A stretch of DNA of 60,601 nucleotides, taken from assembly GCA_016840405.1 (NCBI GenBank), contig JAEOSK010000016.1, positions 1 through 60,601 of the forward strand, given 5' to 3'. The notes below the pieces were generated by a model, which saw only the letters and a list, made by a program, of their open reading frames with translations, made no database searches and had not been told where the DNA came from. The position numbers and the translations under genes are program-made. Shown in pieces: positions 21,683 to 51,738 of this stretch. This stretch comes from Candidatus Hermodarchaeum yapensis (GTDB lineage Archaea; Asgardarchaeota; Hermodarchaeia; Hermodarchaeales; Hermodarchaeaceae). The number at the start of each line of letters is the position of its first letter. Position 1 is the first letter of the stretch.

Positions 21683-21751
21683 AACCTAGTCACACATTCG
21701 CAATAGACGTGTCTATTATTGGGGTAATTCGCATTGAAGAACGGTTCGCTC

Positions 21752-24715: not shown

Positions 24716-24868
24716 AGAATGTCATAAGAGTTGCGGTTTTGCACCCACCCCAGGTTCAATGAACTGGTAGCTCCGCTGTTGAGATGATGGGTGTTTTCTG
24801 TGTTGTGGTAGTGTGCTGTTCGGTTAATCATATAAACAAAAGGGGGAGTAGAGTGAAAGTAATCTGAG

Positions 24869-28686: not shown

Positions 28687-29895
28687 TTAGTACGTATAGG
28701 GACTATAGAGGGGGAGCTGTGGGAACCAGTTTTGTAGGAGTTCACGGGTTTGCTTATCAGCGCCCTTGAGCCACTGTGCATATTCGATTTCTTCTAGAGA
28801 ATGAGTTCCATAGACAAGGGCACTTAGACCATGAATGGTTAGTGCAGTTTTCGTTGCCTGTGTTGTAGGCTGAATTTGCAGTTGTTTTCCATTGGATTTG
28901 AGAAGATAGGTGCCAGTATTCCATTCACATTGGGAATCACTTAGTGTAAATACCAGTTCACCCTTTTCAGTGGCAGGAAGACCTGAGAGGGCTTCTTTGA
29001 CGTCAATAACACGGATCATCCAAGGATGCCAGACTTTGATTTGAATCCAGTCTCTCAAGTCCTCAAACCAGTGCTGAAAGTTGGTTCCGTAGGGAAGGAT
29101 CATTATGAGTTTTTGAAACTGGTCTCGGTGTTTGCTGAAGAAGTTGAAGAGGGCGGCTTGGGCTGGGAGATTACGCCAGTACATTTCCTCAATTTGAAGT
29201 TGCCCAGGTTCTTCGAAGTGCATGTAACCTTTAAACTTGAAGCGAGCAAGCGCTTCAATCTTCCCTCCTTTTTTCACCAACACATAATGCCGGTCTTTGT
29301 TACGACGTTTCCATTCTTCATCAGAAATGACCGGGTTGAAAGCATAACCGTGAAAGGCACTTGGAGCGAAATCTTGGATGAAAGCCATGTAAGCATCTTT
29401 TACTTCTTGTCCTGAAACGCGTTCAATCTCCAAGTCATCATTGATTTCATGATTTGCCTTTACGCGTAGCCCGTCAAGCGGAGCTTGTAGGCGATATTTT
29501 TCATATGCGGGGACATAGCCAAATTTGTCGTAGAAGGTTTCTCGGAAGGGTTCGAGCATGCTGACGGAAAATCCTTCATCTTTCATTTTTTGAAACGCCT
29601 TTTGCATTAACGAGCGAGTATAACCTTTCATCCGGGCTTCAGGGTAGGTACCGACCATTGATATTCCGCCCATCATTTTCAGGACGCCACGAATGGACTG
29701 TTTCGTTTTCATTATCGTTAGAACTGAGAGAAGGTCTTTTTTGTCAAACACGCCGATTGTGTTTTCAGGAATTATGAAGTCATGGTCTTCTTCGCGAACC
29801 TCTTGGTCGGACCAGAAGCCATAGGCATATTGGTGGAGCTTGAGGACTTTGGGCATTTCCTTTTTTGTGAGTTTTCGGATTTCCATCGTTGGCAT
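28687..29895 (-). CDS. Eis-like GNAT acetyltransferase with C-terminal SCP2-like domain
   Basis: VGTYPEARMKGY, FYDKFGY, D..C.WNTG, LSALVYG. Confidence 0.88.
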   Translation of the reverse strand: MPTMEIRKLTKKEMPKVLKLHQYAYGFWSDQEVREEDHDFIIPENTIGVFDKKDLLSVLTIMKTKQSIRGVLKMMGGISMVGTYPEARMKGYTRSLMQKAFQKMKDEGFSVSMLEPFRETFYDKFGYVPAYEKYRLQAPLDGLRVKANHEINDDLEIERVSGQEVKDAYMAFIQDFAPSAFHGYAFNPVISDEEWKRRNKDRHYVLVKKGGKIEALARFKFKGYMHFEEPGQLQIEEMYWRNLPAQAALFNFFSKHRDQFQKLIMILPYGTNFQHWFEDLRDWIQIKVWHPWMIRVIDVKEALSGLPATEKGELVFTLSDSQCEWNTGTYLLKSNGKQLQIQPTTQATKTALTIHGLSALVYGTHSLEEIEYAQWLKGADKQTRELLQNWFPQLPLYSPYTY

Positions 29896-37879: not shown

Positions 37880-39082
37880 CTAAAAGTACACAACGTTGTA
37901 GAGGGGAAGGAGTGGGAACCAGCGTTGAAGCGTATGTCGAGCCCAATCTTCAGTGATGGTAATTTCCCCTTGAAACTCTAATTCCTCAACAGAAAGAGTA
38001 CCGAAGACCAGGGAAGAAAGCGCCTTGATAGAAAGCTTCACAACTGGTTTGCCGGAACTCTTGTTCATGTGAAGACAGTTTTTCTCTGATTGAATTGTGA
38101 ATATACCATTGTTCCAAGCACAATCGGGATCAGAAATTTCTAGTGTCACCATATCCTCGCCTGAGGCTGGAATGTTTTCAACGGCTTTTTGAGCATCGAT
38201 AACTCGAACCATCCATGGAGCCTTTCGCTCGATACTCAACCTAGCATCTTCAAACCAATGTTCTACTCTCGTTTCAAACGGAGCATGGATGATGATATCA
38301 TCGATTTGATCTTGATGAGTGGCAAAGAAGTCAAAAAGCTTCATTCTTGCTTCCCGGGTTCGCCATAAGATGTCTATGACCGTTAGTTCTGATACCCAAC
38401 GACCTTCTCTTCGTTCGCCTTTGATTCGATAGCGGCTTGCGGCTTGAATCACTCCTTTGTTTTTCACAAAGACAACAATACTGTCTTTGGTCCTGCGTTT
38501 CCACATTCCGTCGGGGATTGATTTGAAAATAATGAATCCATGATACTGGGCTGGTCCAATTTCTCGGATAAATTCCAAGAGAGTATCTTTAGCGTCAACC
38601 GCACGTAACCTTTCATAGCTCCATTCCGAATTCGCATCTTCTCTCCCAGTGTGCTTGAGATGTTTTATGGGAGCTTTGACGAGATATGGAGCGTTGGCGG
38701 TTGCATACCCAAATTTTGCGTAAAAACTTGGTTTAAAGGGGTCCAGCATACTCACGGATTGGTCTTGCTTATACATTTCTTTAAATCCAGCGAGCATGAG
38801 TTGTCGTACATAGCCTTTATGGCGTACTTCAGGGTAACTGGCTACACCTGCGATGCCACCACAATCTTTGAGAACCCCTCGCACTGATTGTTGAAATTCA
38901 TGGAGTCTCGTGGATGAGACAAGCTGCCCATTTTCAAATAAGCCAAGGGTTTCATGAGTGAGGATTTCTTCAAGCTCTTCATCCTTGATTTCTTGATCTG
39001 ACCATTCGGTGTAGGCGTATCGGTATAGGTCCATCAAGGCTTTGCGATCCTTGGCAGTGATTTTTCGGATTTCCATAGTCAT
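37880..39082 (-). CDS. Eis-like GNAT acetyltransferase (paralog of 28687..29895)
   Basis: VASYPEVRHKGY, FYAKFGY, DPDCAWNNG; collinear similarity to the other copy. Confidence 0.88.
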   Translation of the reverse strand: MTMEIRKITAKDRKALMDLYRYAYTEWSDQEIKDEELEEILTHETLGLFENGQLVSSTRLHEFQQSVRGVLKDCGGIAGVASYPEVRHKGYVRQLMLAGFKEMYKQDQSVSMLDPFKPSFYAKFGYATANAPYLVKAPIKHLKHTGREDANSEWSYERLRAVDAKDTLLEFIREIGPAQYHGFIIFKSIPDGMWKRRTKDSIVVFVKNKGVIQAASRYRIKGERREGRWVSELTVIDILWRTREARMKLFDFFATHQDQIDDIIIHAPFETRVEHWFEDARLSIERKAPWMVRVIDAQKAVENIPASGEDMVTLEISDPDCAWNNGIFTIQSEKNCLHMNKSSGKPVVKLSIKALSSLVFGTLSVEELEFQGEITITEDWARHTLQRWFPLLPLYNVVYF

Positions 39083-39138
39083 CCCTTCGTGGCAGAATCA
39101 GTACAATTATTCCACTTGTTATATTCTTTTCTTGTTGA

Positions 39139-39513
39139 TTGGAGTGGAATACGACTCAAGGATTATATGCTTGTATTACCGATAGAAAAGCAGGGTTGAG
39201 GAAATTGAAAAAACAATTAGAAGTTAGTTATGTCTTAATTAGTGGTCAAATATTGGTTCGGCTTGATTCCCAACAATTTCAAGAAGTTGTAGCTGAAGAA
39301 GAGTTACCTGTCATTTCAGGCTATATTAAGAGATCCATCTTCAGGTTTGAGCCCCCAGGTTATTACTATATTGCCTCCAATGGATCACTCACCTACTATC
39401 TGCGAGTAAGAGAACCTATTGATGAAATTATTCCCGATATTATTGCAAGCAAAATACAAATTCAGCTTCATCCATCGCAACCGAATGTAGCAGTAGAGAG
39501 AAAATATTTATGA
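39139..39513 (+). CDS. hypothetical protein
   Basis: ORF directly upstream of the HDAC gene; start uncertain. Confidence 0.55.
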   Translation: MEWNTTQGLYACITDRKAGLRKLKKQLEVSYVLISGQILVRLDSQQFQEVVAEEELPVISGYIKRSIFRFEPPGYYYIASNGSLTYYLRVREPIDEIIPDIIASKIQIQLHPSQPNVAVERKYL

Positions 39514-39535
39514 GCAATTTTTTGACAGCTGACCA

Positions 39536-40507
39536 ATGATGAACAAGAAACAGACTCTCATTCTTTACCATCCACTCATGGCAATGGAAGGGTACCCAGT
39601 TCTCGCTGGGCGTGTAGAACCTGCTTTTGAGTATCTTCGGGAAAGCGGAACTTTAGACGCCCCAGAGGTTTTTGTAGAAGAAGCCCAAGATGTACCTGAA
39701 GATTTGCTCTTATCGGTTCATACGGCGAATCATATCCAGCGTGTTAAGGATTCGGGGTACGATCCAGCTTCGCTTGTATCTGGTGGGGCGGCTGTCAGAG
39801 CGGGTGAAGCCGTTTGGCTCGGTGAAGCTGCTAATGCGTTTGCATTCACTGGTTGTGCAGGACATCATGCCAGTCGTGATTCGTTCTGGGGATTTTGTTA
39901 TTATAATAATTCAGCCCTGCTGGTGCGGCATCTTCAGCAAGTACATGATGTGAAGCAATTTTTCATTGTGGATACTGACCCTCATCCTGGTGATGGCACC
40001 CGTGACACGTTGGGTGATGATGAGGGTGTTTTTCATTTGAATTTCGAGGCGAGTTTCCGAGAACGAGTTGATATCACATCTGATCGACATGTGGATGTGC
40101 CTTTTCCGAGTAGTAGTGGAGATGAATCCTTTGTTGAAGCGGTTCGTCGATTGGTCCCTCCATTGGCTCGTCGAAGTCGAGCACAAATGATTCTGTGGAA
40201 TATGGGTCACGATGCCCATGCGCAGGATTATGGGGGATTCAATCTGTCGCTTCGGGCATTCCCTGCTATGACAGATATTTTGATTCAGGCAGCAGCTCAA
40301 GTGTGCTCAGGACGGCTTGTAGTACTGTTATCAGGGGGTTCCGAGGTGTTCGTGGCGCAGCACGCGATTTCGAGCATAGTCCGGAAACTGGCAGGTTTAC
40401 CATCACTACCTGAGGATATCCAAGATCAACCCAGCACTGAATCGAATGCTACGAAAGAAACAGCCCGTAAACTGACAGATACAGTCCTTCAGGAATGGGA
40501 CCTTTAA
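39536..40507 (+). CDS. histone deacetylase (HDAC/AcuC) family protein
   Basis: GHHA, GFCYYNN, DTDPHPGDGT, GHDAH; the EGGY motif appears as SGGS. Confidence 0.92.
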   Translation: MMNKKQTLILYHPLMAMEGYPVLAGRVEPAFEYLRESGTLDAPEVFVEEAQDVPEDLLLSVHTANHIQRVKDSGYDPASLVSGGAAVRAGEAVWLGEAANAFAFTGCAGHHASRDSFWGFCYYNNSALLVRHLQQVHDVKQFFIVDTDPHPGDGTRDTLGDDEGVFHLNFEASFRERVDITSDRHVDVPFPSSSGDESFVEAVRRLVPPLARRSRAQMILWNMGHDAHAQDYGGFNLSLRAFPAMTDILIQAAAQVCSGRLVVLLSGGSEVFVAQHAISSIVRKLAGLPSLPEDIQDQPSTESNATKETARKLTDTVLQEWDL

Positions 40508-40515
40508 GAGGAACA

Positions 40516-40974
40516 TTAGGTGGTTCCTACTTTTTCCCAAGCCACCCATTTACCTTGCGCTCGTCGGACTAAGACGAGCCCAAATCGTTGCCAGATTTCT
40601 TCACGGGTAAGAGGTTCTTCCGAGGACATGTGAAGTTGTGAATCGTGCTGGGGGCGTATAAGAGGAGACGGTTTCGTATAGAATAAGTTATCAATTAAAG
40701 CGCCCACGCGTCCTTTTTGGTATTGATCTTTAACGAAGATGAGGATCTGCTCAGAGGGAATATCGGCGGGTTGCAGAGTATGGCGAGGAACTCCTTGGCT
40801 AAATGAGGGACAGACACCACCCATAGTAGAGTGGACAATTTCAAGACATTGAGGGTCAACGAAAAACTGACACCGGACACATTGATGCCACCCGTCGTGA
40901 ATGGCTTGCTCTAACGTGGTCCGGGACCCGCAGGCCATGCAAGTGATGCCCACGGTGGAGAGATCTAACTTCAT
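40516..40974 (-). CDS. RING-like zinc-finger protein (Nse1-type spacing), last gene of the SMC operon
   Basis: CMAC...CVRC-x4-D-x2-C-x11-CP...H; ATGA overlap with upstream gene. Confidence 0.65.
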   Translation of the reverse strand: MKLDLSTVGITCMACGSRTTLEQAIHDGWHQCVRCQFFVDPQCLEIVHSTMGGVCPSFSQGVPRHTLQPADIPSEQILIFVKDQYQKGRVGALIDNLFYTKPSPLIRPQHDSQLHMSSEEPLTREEIWQRFGLVLVRRAQGKWVAWEKVGTT

Positions 40975-41612
40975 AGTTTATCACCCTCCTGAGTTGCTGT
41001 GGCACCTGCGAGATAGATGGTCGAAGCATTAGCTATAGCTTCGCGTCGTTCAGCGTCAAATTCCAGTTCAAGGCGGGGTCCATATGTGATTCGTCGAGCT
41101 GTGCGGGTGATGTATCCCAATTCACCAAGTCGACGAAGAATCCGATCTAATTGATAGCGAGAGAGTCGTCCTCGGGCAACAAGCACAGTTTCGATGTCTT
41201 TGGTGGCAATTCGTCGAGGTCGCTTAGTTTTACTAGCTCGTTCAATCGTGGCAATGATGACGCCTAAGACAGCATACTCGGGATCTGAGAGTTCTCCCGG
41301 TACCCCATAGAGGGTTCGAATACAGTACAGAGTATCGCGACCGAGTCGATATTCGACAAGTTCCAGACCTAACGGTGCGATTTCTTGGCGAAGCAAATCA
41401 AGGAGCCTTGTTAGCCCAGTCTTGTTGATATGGAGAGCTTCCTGCAAGTCTTGACGTTTGACCCCGATATTTAACTGGCCTTCTTCGTTTCGATACCGGG
41501 CGGTGAGAGCAGCAAAGAGTTGACCGAGAAGATGCCGTTCTTCAAATTCCTCTTCTTCCTTGACATCTGAAGGGTCAGGCACGTCATTAGGAGCATTAGG
41601 ATCGGTGGTCAT
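40971..41612 (-). CDS. kite-like tandem winged-helix protein (Nse1/Nse3/ScpB-like)
   Basis: Two WH-like units, APLGLELVE and LGELGYI...ITYGPRLELEF; position in the SMC operon. Confidence 0.65.
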   Translation of the reverse strand: MTTDPNAPNDVPDPSDVKEEEEFEERHLLGQLFAALTARYRNEEGQLNIGVKRQDLQEALHINKTGLTRLLDLLRQEIAPLGLELVEYRLGRDTLYCIRTLYGVPGELSDPEYAVLGVIIATIERASKTKRPRRIATKDIETVLVARGRLSRYQLDRILRRLGELGYITRTARRITYGPRLELEFDAERREAIANASTIYLAGATATQEGDKL

Positions 41613-42406
41613 CGACGACGCACCTCCGCGTATTTTTTCGCTTCAATGGCAACTGCGGCAAAAGTTGCATTGGCTGAAGGTTCTTTGTGTTTCGATAGAA
41701 ATTTTACTGAATTTTTGTCGAAGAGTGCAGGAATTATATTATCACGAATCATCTGGCTAAGAAGGTCCAATTCCCAATTTGTCAAGTGATCGGATAATTC
41801 GGAGTATTTGAAACGTTTTCCTTGAAGCCGTTTATGAAGTGTGTTTCTTAACGTATCAAGTGAGTCGATTGATACCTCAGAAAAGGGAACCTGATGTTGC
41901 TTCATCGCTTGTTGATCATCACGAGTGGGTGCTTCTGACATTGTTACAGGATTATCAGTATCGGGAAGGGAGAAGTGTGGAACGGAACGTTCACGATTCA
42001 CCAAAAACATTAGAGGTGTGGCTCGCCGCTTGACTTCCTCTGCGAAGTGGATAATCCATTCTTCTGGAGCTAGTTCAGGTGCTGCTAGATGAGAATCACG
42101 GTGGTGTTGCATGGTGGCAAGGGTATGGTAAAACCGACCGTCAAGATTCCGTTCCCATGGAGTTTCTAGGACCCGATAAGCATCAGCTACTTCTTCCCGA
42201 TCGATCTCAGCTTCTTTCACAGGAATGATATCCTTTTGCTTCAAAGCCCCTTCGTATTTCTTGGTAAGATTCCACAACGTGATTGTAATTCGTTTCGTTC
42301 CAAAGGGTGTCAATCGGTTGCGTTTGTAGTTATGTTGGAATGTTTCATACCAGGCTTTCCGTCGGGGGAATGCACGAAGATAGGTGGAGGTTTCATTTGA
42401 TAGCAT
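41609..42406 (-). CDS. putative kleisin-like SMC partner
   Basis: Coupled to the SMC stop; LDGRFYHTLATM...SHL and C-terminal FKYSEL segments loosely recall ScpA/Nse4; mainly positional. Confidence 0.45.
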   Translation of the reverse strand: MLSNETSTYLRAFPRRKAWYETFQHNYKRNRLTPFGTKRITITLWNLTKKYEGALKQKDIIPVKEAEIDREEVADAYRVLETPWERNLDGRFYHTLATMQHHRDSHLAAPELAPEEWIIHFAEEVKRRATPLMFLVNRERSVPHFSLPDTDNPVTMSEAPTRDDQQAMKQHQVPFSEVSIDSLDTLRNTLHKRLQGKRFKYSELSDHLTNWELDLLSQMIRDNIIPALFDKNSVKFLSKHKEPSANATFAAVAIEAKKYAEVRRR

Positions 42407-45336
42407 TAGGATTTCACCTCCCCTTTCAGAAGCACTATGTGATGCATGGTCTCGGGGATTTGGAGTCCCACGGTCGAAGGCGCCATCAGGAGAAACTGTG
42501 GTGGAATGAGTGTGTCTTCACTGCTAAGGGCTAGAGTTCGTTGCACAACGCTCAGAACAGCCGCCCGACTAGCCTCATCCAGACGTTGTGTGAATTCATC
42601 AATGACATGGAGGGGGCTCTTTGCGAGTGTATGTAATGCAAGGATAAAGGTCTGAGTGGCAAGAACTCGCTCACCACCCGACATTTCTTGATAAGTACGC
42701 CAATCGCCCTTTCGATTGATCGCAAGTTGAAGGTGCAATTCCGCTCGACTTGGTTCATCAGGAAAACGAACTATGAGTTTGACTTGTTTCAAGAAGTGGC
42801 TGAGAAGTTGATTCATTCGAAGATTGAGAGTTTCGACTGTTTGTTCTAGCTGGTGTCTCCATTCTGTTAACCGACGCTCAACATCTGTCATGAGGTTTTC
42901 AAGATGAAGCTGACGTTCTTTGAGATAATCATGAAGTTCCGACACAACTTTTTCTTGCTCTTCAAAGGCTGTGCGATCTTTCGCTGTTGCGGTGATTGTT
43001 GTTATCATTGCTTGAATTTGTAGTTGTTCGTCTCGAACAACGGAAGGCGTGCGGACCTCCTGAGGTCGTTCTCCCAACGATTTTGCTGTTTTTCGGAACT
43101 CTTTTGCTTGATCTAATATGTGTTTGTATTCATCTTCGCGTTGACGGAGTTCTTCGGTGATTTGGTCTATTATCGCCGAACGACGAGCCCGACGAGTATC
43201 TAGATTTTGGAGTTGCCCCTCGATCTTTTGTAATCGGGAATTGAGTGGAGAAAGCTCAGCTGATTGGTTTTGATAATCTTGACCCCATGCATCTCTTTGA
43301 TTATCTAGTTCCAAAATTTGTTGATGTAAGTCAGTGGCACGGAGTTCCAAATCCGATACCAGCGTGGTTTTTTCCATGTCAGTGAGTGTAGCAGTTTGTC
43401 CGTGCCGTAGATCTTGGAGCTGCACTCGGAGTTGACTGATTTCCGAGTTGGCCCGCATCCGATCTCGCATTAATCGTGCTTCTTCTTCGCGGAGTTCCCG
43501 AAGGAGTTGTCGGATTTTTGCGGTGTCCTGGGTTATTCCCAACTCGCGTAGTGGGGTACCTAAGTTGATGGTTACGGGGCGGGGTGGACGGGCAAAGGCT
43601 CCGATGCGGAGGTAAAAACTGGATCCTTCACTAGTGATGATGTTACCATTGAGTTGTTGTGTGGCATCCACTAGAGAGTTAGGATCTGCAGACTCTTCTG
43701 CGACAGCAGTGTTGACGACGCGACTGAGAAAACTCACTGCATAGGTGTCGCCTTCAATGAGATCAGCTGCCCATCCGAACACTGGGGGAGACACCACGGG
43801 TCTATCGCGGGTGATCGAAGTTGTTGGATTGGTTCGAGCAACCACTAGGTTTGGTTTTTCTTGAGGCCAAAGTTGATCAAAAAGGGTTTTTGCCTCGCTG
43901 AAAGCTTCACGGTTCAGAGCAATGAAGGCATAATTGTATCGACCCATTGCGAGTTTTACTGCGGTTTCGTGCTGAGCATGTTCTGGTTTCATACCAATTA
44001 GTGTGAAAATGGGACCAATCACAGAATCGGAGAGTACGCGTTGATCAAGCCCTTCTCGGAACCGCTGGCAAGCACGTAAGATGGTTTCTTCATAGCGGGG
44101 ATAACGTTGTGGTTGGGTAAACAGTTCTTCCTCGGTTGCTGTAATATCTTGTCGAAGGCTAGCCAGTTGTTCATCTAGCAGGTCACGTTCATTGGCAAAT
44201 GTAGTTAGTTCTTGTTGTAACACGGATTCTTTGGTTTTCTTAGTCCGTGGTCGCTTAGATTTTGAATAGCGTTGAATCTGCGAATTGACTGTGTTTAATT
44301 CATTTTCAAGTCCTTGGTGATGTCCTCTTGCCTGCATTTGCTGATCCCGAATTGACTCCAGCTTTCCTTGCAGCTTTTCCTTCTTTTCTCGTGCACGTTC
44401 ATATTTGGAGATAAGTTCAGCTCGTCGGTCATCGAGTTTGGTCAGATTCGCATTTTCAGTGGCTAAAAGCGCTTCCTGATTTGATATTTGTGTTTGAAGC
44501 TGTTCGGCTAATTCTTCTCGATAGGCAACTTCTGCCCAAGCAGCCTCGTTATCGAGAACCTGCAATCGCTCTTGCAGTTGTTGTTTTTGAAGAAACGCTT
44601 CATAGGCAGTTTTCAAAACTTGTAATCGTTGTTCCTCGTGTCGTATTCGATACTCCAAGGGCTTTACATTTGCCTTGGCTTGAAGAACTAGGAGGCGTGC
44701 TTCCTCAAGTTTTTCCATCCAATTCCGCAAACCTGTTTCATTTAGGAGCGTCTCAAATTTTCGTTTTGGTGATTGGGAGGCAAAATGGTCGAGGGTTTCG
44801 GCTTCGGTGATTGCTAGTGGTGAATCCCCAAATAGTCCTGCAGCTTGAAAGAGTTTCCGAATATCGGTTCGCGTGATTTGAGAACCATTAAGTGATCGTT
44901 GTCCATTAATCCAGTAAGAAATTCGGTTACTAGGATGAATTCGGAGACGAATCGATACTATGTCCCGGTCAAGGAGTTTCGCCAATGCATGATCAGGACT
45001 AGTAAGTATTCGTCGTCCATTCAATTGATAATTATTCAGTTCCAAAACAACTTCAGCGTATTTTTCAAAACGCCCAATGAAGGCTGCGTTCCGTTGTCGC
45101 TGTACCCGTCGAGATTCTACACCGATGGCATAGAGTAGAGCATCGAGAATTAGGGTTTTTCCACTTCCATTAGAACCCGTTATCAAAACAATGGGAGAGG
45201 CATCTAATCGAACGGTGGTGTCGCGGTGAATGACAAAGTTCACTAGGCGGATGCTACGAAATGCCAATGGTGGAATTGAAGGCGATAGCTCTTGCCCAGT
45301 GGTCATACGTCTACCTATCTCCCACGCGTTTTTCAT
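42406..45336 (-). CDS. SMC ATPase, Smc5/6-like
   Basis: IRLVNF, GSNGSGKT, coiled coils, hinge VIGPIFTLI, MSGGER...SPLHVIDEFTQRLD (Smc5/6-style head). Confidence 0.9.
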   Translation of the reverse strand: MKNAWEIGRRMTTGQELSPSIPPLAFRSIRLVNFVIHRDTTVRLDASPIVLITGSNGSGKTLILDALLYAIGVESRRVQRQRNAAFIGRFEKYAEVVLELNNYQLNGRRILTSPDHALAKLLDRDIVSIRLRIHPSNRISYWINGQRSLNGSQITRTDIRKLFQAAGLFGDSPLAITEAETLDHFASQSPKRKFETLLNETGLRNWMEKLEEARLLVLQAKANVKPLEYRIRHEEQRLQVLKTAYEAFLQKQQLQERLQVLDNEAAWAEVAYREELAEQLQTQISNQEALLATENANLTKLDDRRAELISKYERAREKKEKLQGKLESIRDQQMQARGHHQGLENELNTVNSQIQRYSKSKRPRTKKTKESVLQQELTTFANERDLLDEQLASLRQDITATEEELFTQPQRYPRYEETILRACQRFREGLDQRVLSDSVIGPIFTLIGMKPEHAQHETAVKLAMGRYNYAFIALNREAFSEAKTLFDQLWPQEKPNLVVARTNPTTSITRDRPVVSPPVFGWAADLIEGDTYAVSFLSRVVNTAVAEESADPNSLVDATQQLNGNIITSEGSSFYLRIGAFARPPRPVTINLGTPLRELGITQDTAKIRQLLRELREEEARLMRDRMRANSEISQLRVQLQDLRHGQTATLTDMEKTTLVSDLELRATDLHQQILELDNQRDAWGQDYQNQSAELSPLNSRLQKIEGQLQNLDTRRARRSAIIDQITEELRQREDEYKHILDQAKEFRKTAKSLGERPQEVRTPSVVRDEQLQIQAMITTITATAKDRTAFEEQEKVVSELHDYLKERQLHLENLMTDVERRLTEWRHQLEQTVETLNLRMNQLLSHFLKQVKLIVRFPDEPSRAELHLQLAINRKGDWRTYQEMSGGERVLATQTFILALHTLAKSPLHVIDEFTQRLDEASRAAVLSVVQRTLALSSEDTLIPPQFLLMAPSTVGLQIPETMHHIVLLKGEVKS

Positions 45337-45375
45337 TCGGTGACGTTATTCACTAACTCAAACTAGACCATGACT

Positions 45376-45494
45376 CTTAAACTTTCACTTAATCGAAGGA
45401 CAGGGCGCCACTTCTAACCTTTTTTGTCCCGACATATTTCCAGCCTTGATTAAACAAGGACGAGAAGGCGAGTTAGCATCGAGAAAAGTTAAAG
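45376..45494. promoter_or_regulatory. divergent promoter region between the SMC and Ubl operons
   Basis: Minus-strand gaaagtttaag (45376-45386) and plus-strand gaaaagttaaag (45483-45494) BRE/TATA-like boxes. Confidence 0.45.
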
Positions 45495-45530
45495 TGTGTG
45501 CTACGCTCCTCCCCAGATAGGTGATTTGTC

Positions 45531-45857
45531 ATGAGCAATGAAGAAGGTTTTTGGCGCTCAATCATTGTGGACGTTGAGCCACGCCAGAAGGAATTTCGAA
45601 TTGGTATTGATGATGAAACCCGAGTTGAAGAAGTAATTCGCACCCTTGTAACACAAGCTCGGGATGAAGGCGTGAGTGTTGATGATTGGGCGAAAGCAAA
45701 GATTGGAGATCAACGCCCAGAATTCGTTCTAATTCGAAAAGCCCCAGAACCCACCAGATTAAGCCCCGGTGCCACCTTTGGGGAATTGGAACCAAAAATC
45801 ACTGATGATGAGTTCTTCCTCTTAGATGTCGTACCAGAAGTAGGGTTCTCGTCCTAA
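45531..45857 (+). CDS. ubiquitin-like (beta-grasp) modifier with C-terminal VG-FSS
   Basis: Beta-beta-alpha pattern (IIVDV...FRIGIDDETRVEEVIRTL), FVL strand, L..GATFGEL, final strand ending EVG + 3 residues; first gene before E2. Confidence 0.7.
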   Translation: MSNEEGFWRSIIVDVEPRQKEFRIGIDDETRVEEVIRTLVTQARDEGVSVDDWAKAKIGDQRPEFVLIRKAPEPTRLSPGATFGELEPKITDDEFFLLDVVPEVGFSS

Positions 45858-45906
45858 TGAGAGAAGTCTTACTCCTTGCTAATCAGAGGATTAGGGGAAA
45901 CTTGCC

Positions 45907-46668
45907 ATGTCGCGTCCAGTATTCTCAACGGAGTTATTCAACGCTCGAGTCGAAACTCAGATTCACACGTTCTTCGATACAATGAGCAATCTGTACGGTC
46001 GAAGGGGTTGGCAACCGGACCCACCAATTCGGGAGGACACCACATGGTCAAATGCAGATTTCACTGTAGCCATTATCAGCCGATATCGTGATGGAACATA
46101 TAAACGAATACGGTTTATTATGCGAAACCTCCCTGGATATGTGCGGGAGCCTGACTCGTTAACAAGCACAAGGTCCTTACGGTATGAGCATCGATTTGTG
46201 TTCGATCTTCCCCGGGAGTATCCCCAAAACATTGGTACGATTCGACCCGCAGCAGAATTACCACTCTTTCATCCCCGGCTATCAGCGAGTGGAACTGGAC
46301 ATGCTTGCTATTCAGTTCGCGGGGAATTGGACCGCATTTTAGAGGACCTGCCATTCTTTGTGTTGTTGAAACCAGACCGTGTGGAACCGCCATCTCAATT
46401 CCAATCGGACCGAGGTCTGAATGCTGCAGCTATGGCCTGGTATGAAAAAGATACAGAGAATATCGTGAATACTCTGGACCGTCTTTGGGAAGACCGTCAT
46501 CAGACTAGCGTTATTATGACTCCATTGAAAGGGCGTGTCCGAATTCTTGATGGTGAACCTGAACCAGCTAGAACAAGTCGACGACCACCACGTATTTTGG
46601 ATGTGAAAGAACAGCGGTCTGGGACAGTACGAATTCTAGATGATTCATCTTCAAATGACGATTCTTAG
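45907..46668 (+). CDS. E2 ubiquitin-conjugating-enzyme-like protein
   Basis: FVFDLPREYP...PLFHPRL...GHAC (catalytic Cys), LNAAAMAWY; disordered tail. Confidence 0.82.
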   Translation: MSRPVFSTELFNARVETQIHTFFDTMSNLYGRRGWQPDPPIREDTTWSNADFTVAIISRYRDGTYKRIRFIMRNLPGYVREPDSLTSTRSLRYEHRFVFDLPREYPQNIGTIRPAAELPLFHPRLSASGTGHACYSVRGELDRILEDLPFFVLLKPDRVEPPSQFQSDRGLNAAAMAWYEKDTENIVNTLDRLWEDRHQTSVIMTPLKGRVRILDGEPEPARTSRRPPRILDVKEQRSGTVRILDDSSSNDDS

Positions 46669-46681
46669 GTGATTTTGCGCA

Positions 46682-46882
46682 ATGTCGGACCGTCCACCTG
46701 ATAAGGAAGAAGAGAAGGAAGAATCGGAAAAAGATGAGGAACCGACATCAAATCGCATTGTTGTATTAAATGAACGGGATATACCCTTTGAAGAAGAACG
46801 CCCACCGAATTTTTCACCACACTTTGCAGTTAAAGTGCACCGTGTGCAGAAAGACACTAGTTCGGAGGAGAATGAGAAGTGA
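46682..46882 (+). CDS. small acidic hypothetical protein in the Ubl operon
   Basis: AGGTGA SD; overlaps next gene; RIVVLNE motif. Confidence 0.55.
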   Translation: MSDRPPDKEEEKEESEKDEEPTSNRIVVLNERDIPFEEERPPNFSPHFAVKVHRVQKDTSSEENEK

Positions 46883-47265
46883 GTGTGCATGGCGCATCGC
46901 ATATGAAGTGCGTAGCCTGTGCAAACCAAGTTTCACTGGATGAAGCACGACGTGAATGGTGGATTTGTACAACATGTGGTAGCTACATGTGTCCCAACTG
47001 TCGATCATTGTTTCTTGAAACTGGACAGGGAACCTGTCCTGGCACAATCGTTCGGGGGGTTGAATCTCACCCACCCCATTTCACACGGTTCCTCGGTCCA
47101 CGAGATGAACCAGAAGTTGTGTTACCTGAAATTCGTTCAACGGTGGAAATCTTAGAAGATGTGCGACGGAATCAGCCCCGTTCACCCGGTGGTCGAGTGA
47201 TTATCCTTGATGACGATGAAGCCCTAGGCGAAGCTGACGAAGAAACGCAAGGTCAGGAGCAATGA
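46879..47265 (+). CDS. RING-like zinc-finger protein (putative E3)
   Basis: CVAC...CTTC-x4-CPNC-x11-CP...H; acidic tail with VIILDDDE. Confidence 0.7.
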   Translation: MSVHGASHMKCVACANQVSLDEARREWWICTTCGSYMCPNCRSLFLETGQGTCPGTIVRGVESHPPHFTRFLGPRDEPEVVLPEIRSTVEILEDVRRNQPRSPGGRVIILDDDEALGEADEETQGQEQ

Positions 47266-48137
47266 AAACTTCCTCCACAATTCTTTCTCACAGAGTCACC
47301 TATTCAACCAAGATTCAAAATACTTCGGATAATCCACTCTCTGGGATCCGTGTGTTTGTTGCCTTTCCACCACCCCTCCCTCCTCGCCAAGAACTCATTA
47401 ATCTGTCATCAATTCCTGTTTCGGGTCGTCAGGCCACAGATTTGAAGGGAAATCATTGGTTGGATTTGACCTGCGACCGATTAGCTGGAAAGGAAACATT
47501 CACCTGTGGTTACACTGCGTTGGTCCGGAATCGTTCCATCCATTACAGACTGCCCCAGTCTACTAGAAACTCCTCAGTACCCTCCAGCCTCGTTGGATAC
47601 ACCAAACCAGAAAACTTCATAGAATCTCACCATCACCTAATCAAAGACCTAGCCCGTGACCTTTCCAGCAAAAACCCCAATCCCATTCCATTCGTGAAAG
47701 CTGCAATGCGTGCTGTAACAAAAACAATTCGATATTCTCCTCAGAAGTATGAGCGCGGGGCTGCTTTTGCGATTGAAAAACACGTCGGAGATTGCACCGA
47801 ATTTGCTGCACTATTTACTGCCCTCTGTCGGGCGAAAGGAATTCCTGCAAGATTAGAAGCGGGATTTGCATATAATAGGAAAAAGTGGGAGCGGCATGCA
47901 TGGAGTGTAGTGTGGATTCAGGACAATTGGATTCCCGTTGATCCGACGTGGTATGGCAACAGTGGCTGGTTGGGCGTGACCAACCGTCACATTCCCCTCA
48001 TTATTGGTAACTGGATGGATATTCGTATCCACCAAGAGTTCAAAATGACATGGTCGCACAAACCACAAACAACTCCACCACAATTGGGTTCAAAATGGAA
48101 AGTCACGAAAGTTGTGAGTATCTTAAATTCAAGCTAG
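47262..48137 (+). CDS. transglutaminase-like (Cys-His-Asp) protein
   Basis: GDCTEFA...CRAKGIPAR, HAW, WIPVDPTW. Confidence 0.92.
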   Translation: MKTSSTILSHRVTYSTKIQNTSDNPLSGIRVFVAFPPPLPPRQELINLSSIPVSGRQATDLKGNHWLDLTCDRLAGKETFTCGYTALVRNRSIHYRLPQSTRNSSVPSSLVGYTKPENFIESHHHLIKDLARDLSSKNPNPIPFVKAAMRAVTKTIRYSPQKYERGAAFAIEKHVGDCTEFAALFTALCRAKGIPARLEAGFAYNRKKWERHAWSVVWIQDNWIPVDPTWYGNSGWLGVTNRHIPLIIGNWMDIRIHQEFKMTWSHKPQTTPPQLGSKWKVTKVVSILNSS

Positions 48138-49004
48138 TTATTTGTGTTTTCGTTTGTCCCGACAAAATGTCTCACTACATCGTGGGTTCACCATTATTTG
48201 ACCCGACGCAGCCTGATGTCGATTTAGGTCGTACTTGATAAACCGACCCAAAGCAGGTTCCAAACCGTCTTGCCACTGTCCCGTTTCTCGCCACTGTTTC
48301 AACCCCACAAGAACGCGAACCGCCTCCCAGGCCATTACAGCACCCACCACTGAGGTCACAAAACTAATCATAGGAAATCGCGGAACTGTGTCCACAAAGA
48401 AAGGGTCACATCGTGTCCGTACCTCATTGGCGACAACGTGGTCGACGAAGTCTTTACTCCACGAGCACACAAGACATGCTGTGTGAGGAGGCGCAAGCAC
48501 CTCAACTGAGACAAAATCCTTGCCCATCGCCCCATTAATGAGAGGATGTGGTGGATTAAAGCTGAAATTTTTCGCATTTAGGAGATAGCGTGCATAGTGA
48601 TTATCTACACCAACCAAGACCAGTTGAGTATCCCAGACAGAATCGGGCGCTTGTTGAATAGTCGCTGCGTGAGGTTCGACTACAGTGTTCGTGGCGAGTT
48701 CTGGTAACCGTTCAGCTACCGCCTCCACTTTGAATTTGGCTTCATGGTCTCCTGGGCGGAAAAAGATACAACGATTAAGATTCGATGCAGCAACTTTGTC
48801 CGGATCCACCAAGATAATTTTGCCTACGCCAAGTAATCCAAGGTTTTTACATACCTCATTTCCAACAGCACCAGCGCCTACCATGAGTACTGTAGATTGT
48901 TGGATGGTTTCGAGATTATTAGCTCCCAGCCAGCGACGAGTCCGATCGTGTTGATCTCGCTCGAAAAAACTAAGTTCAATTGGCGTGGGTGATTCCTTAG
49001 TCAT
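48138..49004 (-). CDS. E1-like ubiquitin-activating enzyme (ThiF/MoeB family)
   Basis: VGAGAVGNEVCKNL, DPDKVAASNLNR, VDN, CLVC, candidate catalytic Cys in RTRCD; ATG 49004 overlaps the JAB stop. Confidence 0.92.
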   Translation of the reverse strand: MTKESPTPIELSFFERDQHDRTRRWLGANNLETIQQSTVLMVGAGAVGNEVCKNLGLLGVGKIILVDPDKVAASNLNRCIFFRPGDHEAKFKVEAVAERLPELATNTVVEPHAATIQQAPDSVWDTQLVLVGVDNHYARYLLNAKNFSFNPPHPLINGAMGKDFVSVEVLAPPHTACLVCSWSKDFVDHVVANEVRTRCDPFFVDTVPRFPMISFVTSVVGAVMAWEAVRVLVGLKQWRETGQWQDGLEPALGRFIKYDLNRHQAASGQIMVNPRCSETFCRDKRKHK

Positions 49005-49611
49005 GAGGTTCAGCCTCCTCATCCTGTTGGGTCTCTTCAGAAGTTGGTGTGCTTTCGTCAATTGGTACAGAGGGTTGGTAAGTACACCAGTCTACCTGTT
49101 CGAGTTGAAGACCTGGTTCATCGGGTCGAGGACGAAGCATATAGACTTTGAAAATGCGACTCAACGGGTCAATGAGGAAGAAGATATTACCCTCAGCACA
49201 GAATGGTGTATTGAAGAAAGTGCGTAAATCAGTGGATGAGAACTGCGGGTCGCCACCGAATGGGTGCGAATGCCAGAGCCCTACAACGCGAGGCGTATGT
49301 GGATTAGTCCCATATCGATCATGTAATGCTAAGCGGTATTCTAGAATGCCTTCTGGTGTGAACCGAGCATACGCCATACTTGCTTCAACGCGTCCAGTGG
49401 CCCAATCAGTTACTCGGATGTAATTTTCATCTAGCCATGTACGGCGGAAGCCGAGAATCACCCCGAGCGCTTCACGCGGTGGCTGCCGTATTGCTTCCTG
49501 ATGACAAAAATTGAATATCTCATGGCAGGTCCGTTTATAGACATAAACTGGGTACACTGGTTCATCGATTAATGTATCACTGTTTACCATGGGAATATCT
49601 TGATTTGACAT
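48997..49611 (-). CDS. JAB/MPN+ (JAMM) metalloprotease
   Basis: EALGVILG, VVGLWHSHP...FSSTD, LIDP. Confidence 0.92.
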   Translation of the reverse strand: MSNQDIPMVNSDTLIDEPVYPVYVYKRTCHEIFNFCHQEAIRQPPREALGVILGFRRTWLDENYIRVTDWATGRVEASMAYARFTPEGILEYRLALHDRYGTNPHTPRVVGLWHSHPFGGDPQFSSTDLRTFFNTPFCAEGNIFFLIDPLSRIFKVYMLRPRPDEPGLQLEQVDWCTYQPSVPIDESTPTSEETQQDEEAEPHD

Positions 49612-49715
49612 GAGCCGTTCACACCATTTCACTTGATTATGAATAGTTAAATCCTAGTGATACACCCATATATTTCCAAGCAGTCTATCACAAATGGAAA
49701 GGGAGTTGGATAGCA

Positions 49716-50259: not shown

Positions 50260-51738
50260 CTAAAACTGGCTAAGATGAGAGGTATCACCAAGTTTGCTAG
50301 ACCAGGGATAGCGCTCCATGATATTATCTAGTAGGCGACGTAGCTTCGTAACTTCAGATGTATTTGAATAAACTAGAAAGACAACTCGTCCACCACGACT
50401 GCGTTTCATTTTCTGATAAATTGTCTTTGTTGTGTTCACTGTATCACAGATAATGAGTAAATCTGTATCTGGTAAATCCAAGTCACGTTCCCCTACAGGT
50501 GAGAGGATGACCGCAGCGGGGGGTTTGGCTTGCCTGAACTCTGAGAGTAAAGCTTGTTTGTCCATCGTCCGCCCAGTAAGCTGAAAGGTTTGGACTCCTT
50601 TTTCTGTGAGGAGCCTATCGATTTCACTGACAACAGTAAGGTATGAGGAGAGGATTACGGTTTTTTCTGCATTAAGAGCAAGATCTCGGGCTTCGATGGA
50701 TTTCGGTGTAGTTTTGGGCCAATCTTGCATCATTCGGTTGACATCGATTTGGGGTTTAATGGTGGGATGATGAAGATACCGTCGAAAACTCTTTGCAGAC
50801 ATGCCGTAGAGATATTTCCGAATCATCAGAAGTCCATTATATTTTTGTCCGAGTTCTTCAGAGATGGGTAGTTCGTGAAGCATCAAGTGGAGTAACCGCG
50901 TGTTCTCGGGAAGTGTTCCGACGGGTTCTTTTGTAGCTTCTCGAACGGTTTCATAGATTTCTTCTCGAGTCGACTGAATTAGGTCATCGAGGACCAATGC
51001 CATTGTCCGGATGACTGGATTCTGGACCGGAGCTGCGTCAAGGATGGTGGGTTTGATGTATTGCTCCAAGTCAGTGCCTACGAGTTCATCCATGCTGATC
51101 AATTCAACATTGGTCAGAAAAGTGGCGAGGGTTTGGAGTTCATCTCGAATTTGAATTTGCGCGTCGTTGAAGATGACGTGGTCGTCACGAAGTGTTCCAC
51201 TAAGCCCAATAATCCAGCGATCTTTAAAGAAGTCCAGGAGGAAGCTCCAGGGTTGGATGAGAACTTGATTATGTCCAACACGACGGAGAATGGTATCTAC
51301 CTCGTTGATGAGGAGTCCTTCGAAATGCTCAGGGCCGAGTTCACCTTTTCGGAGAATATTCGCAAGGACGCGAGCGGTACTAAGAACGACGCGTGAGTCG
51401 CGTAGGAGTTTGACACGTTGGGGTCCACGAACAAATGGTGTGAGGACCCCCAACCCTTCGACACCACCGTATTCTTCCTCGAGATATTGGGCAGTTTCTT
51501 GGAGTGAGGATGAAGAATTGACAGTAATTACAAAACGTGTGGTGGGGAAGAGCTCGGTGACAAGTTTGTAAGTGAGAACGCGTTTTCCAAGCCCGCAATC
51601 TAATTCCACTAGGATGTTGTTGTTGCGATTTTCCTTGACGCGTTTGAGAATGTGCTCTTGATATTGTCGTGTGTCAAATCGGGGGGTGTCGGAATCGCAA
51701 TCCAGTGGTTCTGCGGGGGGAGTAGGTGACATCTTCAC
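50260..51738 (-). CDS. degenerate Hef/FANCM-like SF2 helicase
   Basis: RQYQ, DCGLGKR, INEVD, GLSGT, SPVGERDLDLP, QKMKRSRGG: SF2 motif order with altered catalytic residues. Confidence 0.75.
   Translation of the reverse strand: MKMSPTPPAEPLDCDSDTPRFDTRQYQEHILKRVKENRNNNILVELDCGLGKRVLTYKLVTELFPTTRFVITVNSSSSLQETAQYLEEEYGGVEGLGVLTPFVRGPQRVKLLRDSRVVLSTARVLANILRKGELGPEHFEGLLINEVDTILRRVGHNQVLIQPWSFLLDFFKDRWIIGLSGTLRDDHVIFNDAQIQIRDELQTLATFLTNVELISMDELVGTDLEQYIKPTILDAAPVQNPVIRTMALVLDDLIQSTREEIYETVREATKEPVGTLPENTRLLHLMLHELPISEELGQKYNGLLMIRKYLYGMSAKSFRRYLHHPTIKPQIDVNRMMQDWPKTTPKSIEARDLALNAEKTVILSSYLTVVSEIDRLLTEKGVQTFQLTGRTMDKQALLSEFRQAKPPAAVILSPVGERDLDLPDTDLLIICDTVNTTKTIYQKMKRSRGGRVVFLVYSNTSEVTKLRRLLDNIMERYPWSSKLGDTSHLSQF

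What the first reader, a model, noticed from the sequence alone, without database searches (positions are those of the whole stretch)
40516..49611. Smc5/6-like operon physically coupled to a complete ubiquitin-like conjugation cascade
Seen: four translationally coupled minus-strand genes (SMC, kleisin-like, kite-like, RING-like) start ~190 bp from a divergent operon (Ubl, E2, small acidic protein, RING-like, transglutaminase fold). That operon abuts, stop-to-stop at 48137/48138, a convergent JAB-E1 pair. Known: eukaryotic Smc5/6 is the SMC complex with built-in Ubl ligases (Nse1 RING for ubiquitin, Nse2/Mms21 for SUMO) and it restricts extrachromosomal DNA. Archaeal Ub operons and archaeal Smc5/6-related proteins are each known separately. 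Inference: this may be a prokaryotic, genetically linked Smc5/6 plus Ubl-modification system, acting in chromosome maintenance or in nuclease-free defence against plasmids/viruses, and a possible ancestor of the eukaryotic coupling. I do not recall this linkage being described.
Basis: partly seen in the sequence, partly recalled or inferred. Interest (0 to 1): 0.93.

Follow-up and report, generated by a model that had tools for sequence, protein, structure and literature searches.

The report
Smc5/6-like complex with private ubiquitin-like cascade
This Asgard archaeon has a second, Smc5/6-type chromosome clamp with its own RING-like subunit, encoded beside a private ubiquitin-like tagging kit; the two stay together across distant archaea and some bacteria, so prokaryotes probably have an SMC complex controlled by protein tagging, as eukaryotes do.

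Summary
All 11 genes are real and arranged as described. The host is a Hermodarchaeota-type Asgard archaeon that also has a canonical Smc-ScpA-ScpB operon and a canonical ubiquitin system elsewhere. The SMC falls in the Smc5/6-ClsN clan (96/89). The kite is homologous to that of the TACK Smc5/6-related operon. The E2 has a UBC fold with an invariant Cys, and the RING-like protein folds weakly like RING/U-box. The kleisin and the Ubl are assigned mainly by position and motifs. The linkage survives reshuffling. Gerdarchaeales carry one operon, SMC-kleisin-kite-RING-JAB-E1-Ubl-E2-acidic protein, and two bacterial genomes carry the same order through E2. E2-positive genomes carry the SMC in 31 of 32 Asgard and 13 of 13 bacterial cases. 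The reverse does not hold: family f4 keeps SMC plus RING without the cascade. Direct ancestry of the eukaryotic coupling is not shown, because RING-less ClsN-like SMCs lie nearer to Smc6. Nothing favours defence over chromosome upkeep. I found no paper on the linkage; this scan noted it before on other genomes. Not found in the scan's notes: SIM-like motifs, and a conserved -1 frameshift in bacterial Ubl-E2 fusions.

The parts
42406..45306 (-). SMC ATPase of the Smc5/6-ClsN clan (966 aa from Met11; the open frame extends to 45336)
   Evidence: Pfam SMC_N E 5e-23. Walker A GSNGSGKT, signature SGGE, Walker B/D-loop PLHVIDEFTQRLD, like Smc6 PFRCLDEFDVFMD and unlike canonical FDEVDAALD. Tree. The named eukaryotic hits among the top 150 that were looked up are all Smc6.
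41609..42406 (-). Kleisin-position subunit (265 aa); kleisin identity inferred from position only
   Evidence: Lies directly after the SMC and, where the contig allows, before the kite in 7 Asgard families and in bacteria. No match to Nse4_C, ScpA, the TACK kleisin or PDB.
40971..41612 (-). Kite (tandem winged helix) of the Nse1/3-related type
   Evidence: Profile matches the kite of a Bathyarchaeota ClsN-like operon (prob 86%, E 5e-6), whose kleisin hits Nse4_C. No match to the genome's own ScpB. Family members weakly hit SMC_Nse1 (3 members, best E 0.002), MAGE and MksE.
40516..40974 (-). RING1: RING-like zinc protein (C-x2-C-x16-C-x2-C-x4-[CD]-x2-C-x11-C-x9-H) with a conserved C-terminal beta module; probable SMC-complex subunit
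   Evidence: Ligands C12, C32, C35, C43, C55 and H65 invariant in 24 homologs. Profile top hits are RNF4, TRAF6, TRIM21 and NOT4 RINGs, all weak. Fold search top rows are U-box, RING and Nse2 SP-RING, Z 3.5-5.1, weak. Stays with the SMC operon even where the Ubl cascade is missing.
45376..45388 (-). Conserved BRE-TATA-like box for the SMC operon
   Evidence: CTTAAACTTTCAC invariant in 10 genomes; promoter role inferred from the archaeal consensus.
45480..45496 (+). Conserved BRE-TATA-like box for the Ubl operon
   Evidence: GAxAAAxTTAAAGTG conserved in 10 genomes; promoter role inferred.
45531..45857 (+). Ubiquitin-like modifier, made as a precursor (invariant V104-G105, then a 0-3 residue tail)
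   Evidence: 88-95% identical within Hermodarchaeota; C-terminal VG invariant across Asgard families and present in bacterial copies. Only weak beta-grasp hints: YukD, RA, Rad60-SLD, UN_NPL4, E 0.03-0.13. Fused to E2 in bacteria. Fold not modelled.
45907..46668 (+). Divergent E2 conjugating enzyme with a disordered tail bearing two SIM-like motifs
   Evidence: AF2 model pLDDT 76. Foldseek top hits all E2s, best E 8e-5. VIA Z up to 8.6 to E2s. Invariant YP, HPR and Cys134 across archaea and bacteria. SIM-like VRILD twice.
46682..46882 (+). Small acidic protein with a SIM-like motif and an E-x-PPN motif; possible Ubl-binding adaptor
   Evidence: Follows E2 in Hermodarchaeota, Gerdarchaeales, Asgardarchaeia and some bacteria.
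46879..47265 (+). RING2: paralog of RING1 with two SIM-like motifs in its tail (RNF4/STUbL-like layout)
   Evidence: Same ligand pattern as RING1; TVEILED and RVIILDDDE. In Gerdarchaeales it lies 6-9 kb from the operon, beside the transglutaminase gene where that was seen.
47262..48137 (+). Transglutaminase-fold protein with a Cys-His-Asp triad; possible deconjugase; loosest member
   Evidence: Pfam Transglut_core E 3e-22. C178 and H212 invariant in 12 homologs. Near Ubl-E2 in f1, f5 and f29.
48138..49061 (-). E1 activating enzyme (ThiF/MoeB fold, no rhodanese domain)
   Evidence: Pfam ThiF E 1e-34. Invariant GxGAxG, NLNRC, D153, zinc Cys 196/199/295/300 and crossover-loop Cys218 in 20 homologs.
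48997..49632 (-). JAB/MPN metallo-isopeptidase
   Evidence: Pfam Prok-JAB E 2e-8. Invariant E54, H121, H123, S132, D135.

Best explanation
This is one functional system: a second, Smc5/6-clan SMC complex (SMC homodimer, kleisin, kite dimer, RING1 subunit) served by a dedicated ubiquitin-like cascade. Proposed steps, all inferred: (1) JAB cuts the Ubl precursor after Gly105; (2) E1 adenylates it and holds it on Cys218; (3) E2 takes it on Cys134; (4) RING1, carried on the DNA-loaded SMC complex, positions the E2~Ubl so that SMC subunits or nearby DNA-bound proteins are modified; (5) SIM-like motifs in the E2 tail, the acidic protein and RING2 bind the Ubl non-covalently, as in SUMO pathways, and extend or read the mark; (6) JAB, perhaps also the transglutaminase fold, removes it. 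The most likely job is housekeeping: controlling loading, release or targets of the clamp in chromosome organisation and repair. Shown: genes, catalytic residues, E2 fold, SMC clan, conserved linkage. Not shown: any binding, conjugation, substrate or cellular role.
For: The gene set recurs in at least four layouts. One co-directional operon SMC-kleisin-kite-RING1-JAB-E1-Ubl-E2-acidic in Gerdarchaeales with different flanks (named). The same order through E2 in bacterial genomes G530 and G398. SMC...RING1-JAB-E1 in Asgardarchaeia G004 and in L187, and RING1-JAB at a contig end in G267. E2 is in 32/351 Asgard genomes, 31 of them SMC-positive; the exception is a fragmented MAG. In a bacterial phylum E2 is in 13/301 and SMC in 14/301, all 13 shared, even on different contigs. 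The genome has a separate canonical Smc-ScpAB and canonical Ub, E2s and other E1-like genes, so this set is private. Catalytic residues are invariant. All 5 SIM-like matches in the 11 proteins fall in E2, the acidic protein and RING2 (447 aa; background 0.1 per 100 aa). For housekeeping: single copy, E2 in 18/18 and SMC in 17/18 genomes of the family, fixed among metabolic genes, GC 0.47 vs 0.45, no plasmid (SMC) or viral (E2) hit.
Against: Family f4 (28/31 SMC-positive) and f24 and f25 keep SMC-kleisin-kite-RING1 (f10: SMC-kleisin-kite to a contig end) but have no detectable Ubl or E2 of this family, so the clamp does not need this cascade. Synteny within Hermodarchaeota is uninformative because the flanks are conserved too. 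Kin are not independent, so the counts overstate. The RING fold match is weak. Kleisin and Ubl folds are unconfirmed. The SIM pattern was defined after the motifs were seen.
Confidence: 0.6

Rival explanations
1. Same machinery, but its job is nuclease-free defence: the clamp recognises plasmid or viral DNA, and the Ubl marks or blocks invader proteins, like Wadjet sensing joined to Bil/Bub-type conjugation.
For: Patchy across Asgard; not found in the large families f6 and f9. Shared with a scattered set of bacteria, probably by transfer. No nuclease in the cluster. Eukaryotic Smc5/6 restricts viral DNA (own knowledge; also mentioned in the van Hooff supplement).
Against: Fixed single copy among housekeeping genes in every family member examined. 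Ubl 88-95% identical, unlike a gene in an arms race. PADLOC hits are generic ATPase, E1 and JAB matches. No plasmid or viral copy found.
Confidence: 0.22
2. The two modules are co-regulated neighbours with separate targets: RING1 is a structural SMC subunit and the cascade uses RING2 on other substrates.
For: SMC-RING1 persists without the cascade in several families. Each operon has its own promoter box here. The cascade has its own RING2.
Against: The cascade was practically never seen without the SMC. JAB-E1 directly follows RING1 in most layouts. RING2 was not found near the bacterial operons.
Confidence: 0.13
3. The Ubl/E1 pair is a sulfur carrier system (ThiS/MoaD/SAMP-like) and the resemblance to ubiquitination is superficial.
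For: The E1 scores best against ThiF/MoeB families, below their cut-offs. The Ubl ends in a single Gly.
Against: A UBC-fold E2 with invariant Cys is adjacent or fused. Two RING-like genes. No rhodanese or cofactor genes nearby. The genome has separate GG-ending MoaD/SAMP-like proteins and other E1-like genes.
Confidence: 0.03

Closest known systems
Archaeal SMC5/6-related SMC-kleisin-kite operons of TACK and Asgard, including ClsN/coalescin (van Hooff et al., bioRxiv 10.1101/2024.01.07.573240; Cell Rep 2025)
   Same: Second SMC operon beside a canonical Smc-ScpAB; order SMC-kleisin-kite; Smc5/6-clan ATPase; homologous kite.
   Different: Adds a conserved RING-like fourth gene and a Ubl cascade. 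That paper calls the Nse1 RING a eukaryotic innovation and does not mention a ubiquitin link. The SMC is a separate subfamily with full-length arms (about 970 aa against about 600-650 aa for most ClsN-like hits). The Bathyarchaeota operon checked has no RING gene after the kite.
Eukaryotic Smc5/6 holocomplex with Nse1 RING and Nse2 SP-RING/SUMO (PMC13503820)
   Same: Smc5/6-clan SMC, kite, a RING-type subunit, a ubiquitin-like cascade and SIM-like motifs.
   Different: One SMC gene and one kite gene (homodimers). The RING stands alone, has a C7H-type ligand set and is not fused to the kite. No Nse4 homology detected. Ubl and E2 show no sequence match to SUMO, ubiquitin or Ubc9.
Archaeal Ub-E1-E2-RING-JAB operons (Caldiarchaeum, PMC3082918, seen in search only; Asgard ESCRT-linked ubiquitin)
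   Same: Same five enzyme classes.
   Different: Different Ubl (108 aa, VG end) and E2 (no UQ_con match, HPR for HPN). The canonical system exists separately on contigs C19 and C40, next to ESCRT-like genes.
Wadjet (JetABCD/MksBEFG) and bacterial Bil/Bub/CBASS Cap2-Cap3 conjugation systems (from own knowledge)
   Same: Wadjet: SMC-kleisin-kite operon besides the housekeeping SMC. Bil/Bub: Ubl, E1, E2 and JAB in one operon.
   Different: No JetD nuclease; SMC is in the Smc5/6 clan; RING E3-like genes present; fixed chromosomal position.

Membership tests
Smc5/6-related (ClsN) SMC clan | SMC head groups with Smc5/6 and ClsN, apart from canonical Smc and Rad50 | tested here: met
   Clade 99.4/98 (LG) and 96/89 starred (C20). 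Union with canonical Smc p-AU 0.036. No Smc5, Smc1-4 or MukB/JetC rows were available.
Smc5/6-related (ClsN) SMC clan | Nse1/3-type kite rather than ScpB | tested here: met
   Match to the TACK kite E 5e-6, none to ScpB; weak SMC_Nse1 and MAGE hits. Not folded.
Smc5/6-related (ClsN) SMC clan | Nse4-related kleisin | tested here: inconclusive
   Right position and size, no detectable homology.
Eukaryotic Smc5/6 holocomplex | Smc5/Smc6 heterodimer and Nse1/Nse3 kite pair | tested here: not met
   One gene of each family in the genome, which is 86% complete.
Eukaryotic Smc5/6 holocomplex | Kite-RING fusion (Nse1) | tested here: not met
   Separate ORFs in all loci read; a search for longer forms found none, weak evidence.
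Eukaryotic Smc5/6 holocomplex | Direct sister lineage of Smc5/6 | tested here: inconclusive
   The best tree puts ClsN-like SMCs next to Smc6 (94/90); the alternative is not rejected, p-AU 0.22.
Ubiquitin-like conjugation cascade | E1 with ATP site and catalytic Cys | tested here: met
Ubiquitin-like conjugation cascade | UBC-fold E2 with catalytic Cys | tested here: met
Ubiquitin-like conjugation cascade | Beta-grasp modifier with C-terminal Gly | tested here: inconclusive
   Invariant VG; only sub-threshold beta-grasp hits; no model made.
Ubiquitin-like conjugation cascade | RING-fold E3 | tested here: inconclusive
   RING, U-box and SP-RING dominate the lists but Z is at most 5.1, and PHD/ZZ fingers also appear.
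Ubiquitin-like conjugation cascade | JAMM protease motif | tested here: met
   E54, H121, H123, S132, D135 invariant.
Ubiquitin-like conjugation cascade | Covalent conjugation to substrates | not testable with these tools
   Needs biochemistry.
Wadjet | JetD toprim nuclease in the operon | tested here: not met
   No such gene among the 11; PADLOC gives only partial JetC ATPase matches.
Rad50/SbcC | Head groups with Rad50; zinc-hook CxxC | tested here: not met
   Rad50 rows form a separate clade, no mid-protein CxxC, and the genome has its own Rad50-like gene on C40.

The most novel reading that the evidence does not exclude
The pairing of an Smc5/6-type clamp with a RING ligase and a SUMO-like, SIM-read modifier already existed in the Asgard ancestor of eukaryotes. 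RING1 is then the forerunner of the Nse1 RING or the Nse2 SP-RING, and this Ubl/E2 pair is a prokaryotic counterpart of SUMO/Ubc9.
Probability: 0.2. Interest if true: 0.95.

Novelty: new variant of a known kind. Interest (0 to 1): 0.82.

Why it matters
No prokaryotic SMC complex with its own ligase and ubiquitin-like modifier appeared in the literature I could search, and the current evolutionary account treats the ligases of Smc5/6 as eukaryotic additions. Whether ancestral or convergent, this is a minimal system of about nine genes in one operon in which to ask what Ubl tagging does to an Smc5/6-type clamp, a long-open question in eukaryotes. Bacterial copies make reconstitution easier. It also adds an E2/Ubl family that Pfam and NCBIfam miss.

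Tried and rejected
Complex prediction of kleisin + 2 kites + RING1: verdict 'no answer' (score 0.40, one control 0.43); it is not used as evidence either way. Search for natural kite-RING fusions: none, weak test. SMC against PLSDB plasmids and E2 against IMG/VR: no hits. Pfam MAGE and Nse4_C against the own genome: nothing. Kleisin against ScpA, the TACK kleisin, Pfam and PDB: nothing. Ubl against PDB sequences and the genome's canonical ubiquitin: nothing significant (one search used wrong coordinates and is void). Foldseek of RING1: no hit at E 0.001 or better. Ubc9 heads the Foldseek list for E2, but VIA ranks many E2s equally, so I do not call it Ubc9-like. The first tree had faulty head extraction and was discarded. 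The sigma-70 promoter scan does not apply to archaea and found nothing. Taxon names for family f4 and for the bacterial genomes could not be read from the tools: 'bacterial' rests on SecA/AsmA and LPS-type neighbours, and 'Planctomycetota' on one contig label and earlier scan notes. Literature searches found no description of the linkage; subscription papers are mostly not covered.

Full report
Observation. The 11 ORFs, their strands, overlaps and the stop-to-stop junction at 48137/48138 are as described. The SMC start is probably Met11 at 45306 (invariant in homologs), so the spacer is 224 bp. The spacer holds two conserved BRE-TATA-like boxes facing outwards, at 45376-45388 and 45480-45496. 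Closest relatives are mostly labelled Hermodarchaeota or generic Asgard MAGs. Locus GC is 0.47 against 0.45 for the genome, and the flanks are metabolic genes conserved in relatives.

SMC module. The SMC has intact Walker A, signature and Walker B motifs. Its D-loop region (PLHVIDEFTQRLD) resembles Smc6 and ClsN-like proteins rather than canonical Smc. In a profile search of 1.8 billion representatives, the family itself came first, then other large SMCs, Bathyarchaeota ClsN-like proteins and eukaryotic proteins; those with names were all Smc6. Head-domain trees put it in one clade with Smc6 and ClsN-like proteins (99.4/98 under LG; 96/89 under C20), apart from canonical Smc and Rad50. Forcing it with canonical Smc was rejected narrowly (p-AU 0.036). 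ClsN-like proteins, not this family, were next to Smc6 (94/90), but the alternative was not rejected (p-AU 0.22). No Smc5, Smc1-4 or JetC rows were available. The genome has its own canonical Smc-ScpA-ScpB on contig C18. The kite is homologous to the kite of a Bathyarchaeota ClsN-like operon (E 5e-6), whose kleisin hits Nse4_C, and not to ScpB. The kleisin-position gene has no detectable homology and is assigned by position. RING1 has eight conserved zinc ligands. Sequence and fold searches are dominated by RING, U-box and SP-RING domains, but all scores are weak.

Ubl module. The E2 has no Pfam match, but its model matches only E2 enzymes at the top of Foldseek and VIA lists, with invariant YP, HPR and Cys134. 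E1 keeps its ATP site, zinc ligands and crossover-loop Cys218. JAB keeps the JAMM motif. The transglutaminase fold keeps Cys178 and His212. The Ubl is highly conserved and ends in invariant VG plus a short variable tail; its beta-grasp fold is only hinted at. The genome has a separate canonical ubiquitin and two canonical E2s, so this cascade is an additional one. Five SIM-like motifs occur in the E2 tail, the acidic protein and RING2, and none in the other eight proteins; background is 0.1 per 100 aa, and E2 tails across the family average 2.1 per 100 aa. The pattern was chosen after seeing the motifs, so this is a lead.

Linkage. Synteny within Hermodarchaeota says little, because flanking genes are syntenic too. 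The test lies in other lineages. Gerdarchaeales have one co-directional operon SMC-kleisin-kite-RING1-JAB-E1-Ubl-E2-acidic with unrelated flanks. Asgardarchaeia G004 has SMC...RING1-JAB-E1 on one contig and Ubl-E2-acidic-transglutaminase on another; G267 has RING1-JAB at a contig end. Two bacterial genomes have the full eight-gene order, and L187 has SMC through E1. E2 was found in 32 of 351 Asgard genomes, 31 of them with the SMC; the Ubl shows the same family pattern. In a bacterial phylum, 13 of 301 genomes have the E2 and 14 the SMC, all 13 shared. The dependence is one-way: families f4, f24 and f25 keep SMC-kleisin-kite-RING1 without this Ubl or E2. The window's divergent layout is therefore probably a rearrangement of an older single operon (inference). 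Related genomes are not independent, so the counts are not a statistical test.

Mechanism. The most likely reading (0.6) is a clamp-bound RING ligase fed by a private cascade. JAB matures the Ubl; E1 and E2 relay it; RING1 on the SMC complex directs transfer to the complex or to DNA-bound neighbours; SIM-like motifs read or extend the mark; JAB reverses it. That bacteria fuse Ubl to E2 directly after the VG supports both JAB cleavage at that site and the Ubl-E2 pairing. A housekeeping role fits the fixed position, single copy and strong conservation. Defence (0.22) fits the patchy spread and bacterial copies but has no direct support. None of these steps is shown.

Known systems and novelty. 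Archaeal Smc5/6-related SMC-kleisin-kite operons are published; that work treats the Nse1 RING and Nse2 as eukaryotic additions and does not mention a ubiquitin link. Searches found no paper on this linkage. It works like Smc5/6 with Nse2 and SUMO but is not a member of that complex: one SMC, one kite, an unfused RING, no Nse4 match. Ancestry of the eukaryotic coupling is possible (0.2); parallel recruitment is at least as likely. Earlier reports of this scan reached a similar reading on other genomes. They are not independent support, but they gave the lead to the bacterial copies, which I then tested.

Side finding. In six bacterial genomes of one class the fused Ubl-E2 gene changes to the -1 frame at an exact run of ten A residues about 44 codons into E2. 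That run is the only one of its length in five of the 12-20 kb loci and one of two in the sixth. A seventh genome has an A9 run there, and an eighth has C-CCT-TTC before a stop codon. Two others are fused in frame. This points to programmed recoding that yields more Ubl than E2.

Verdict. A real, conserved and apparently unpublished prokaryotic pairing of an Smc5/6-clan complex with a ubiquitin-like cascade. Interest 0.82; new variant of a known kind.

Noticed in passing
L192:9778-10703, L202:9290-10245, L203:9371-10335, L204:4065-5026, L205:1841-2799, L206:13210-14171; also L221:8308-9323 and L220:7391-8362: Bacterial Ubl-E2 fusion gene with a conserved -1 frame change inside E2: an exact A10 run in six genomes, A9 in one, C-CCT-TTC before a stop in another; in-frame fusions in L209 and L210. 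Probably programmed slippage or frameshifting that sets the Ubl:E2 ratio.
   Followed up: partly
window 46537-46647, 46757-46783, 47143-47211: SIM-like motifs (V/I-x-I/V-L-D/E) in the E2 tail, the acidic protein and the RING2 tail; RING2 has an RNF4-like RING plus SIM layout.
   Followed up: partly
window 50260-51738: Superfamily 2 helicase-like gene with altered motifs (LDCGLGKR, NEVD) upstream of JAB in Hermodarchaeota; a homolog also lies about 6 kb from the SMC in Asgardarchaeia G004 (L096:1219-2601). May or may not belong to the system.
   Followed up: no
L104:2580-11607 (G041) and L106:5824-11563 (G212): Related but distinct SMCs in other Asgard families, with different partner genes; in G041 a divergent five-gene operon including a kite-like gene. 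Possibly Wadjet-like or mobile systems.
   Followed up: no
L088:11660-17444 (G026): Partial tandem duplication: a truncated 214-aa SMC N-terminus and a second copy of the upstream gene, about 2 kb from the full SMC.
   Followed up: no
L226:1-9987: Further locus with SMC, three genes of kleisin/kite/RING size, a 523-aa gene, JAB, E1, a protein kinase and a 328-aa E2 homolog of fusion length.
   Followed up: no
L184:10001-13480, L211-L216, L222: In the bacterial class with the frameshifted Ubl-E2, the SMC is not followed by detectable kleisin, kite or RING homologs; the system seems dispersed or reduced there.
   Followed up: partly
G000 contig C19:22602-28329 and C40:3-1498: Canonical ubiquitin (ends TEGG), E2 and a small zinc finger beside Vps4/ESCRT-like genes; a second E2-E1 pair on C40.
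   Followed up: partly
window 19844-26893: uvrB-uvrA-uvrC-like operon (recognised from sequence), about 14 kb from the SMC operon.
   Followed up: no
window 37880-40507: Eis-like GNAT acetyltransferase and a histone-deacetylase-family gene flank the SMC operon's 3' end in most Hermodarchaeota; a second Eis-like paralog lies at 28687-29895.
   Followed up: no
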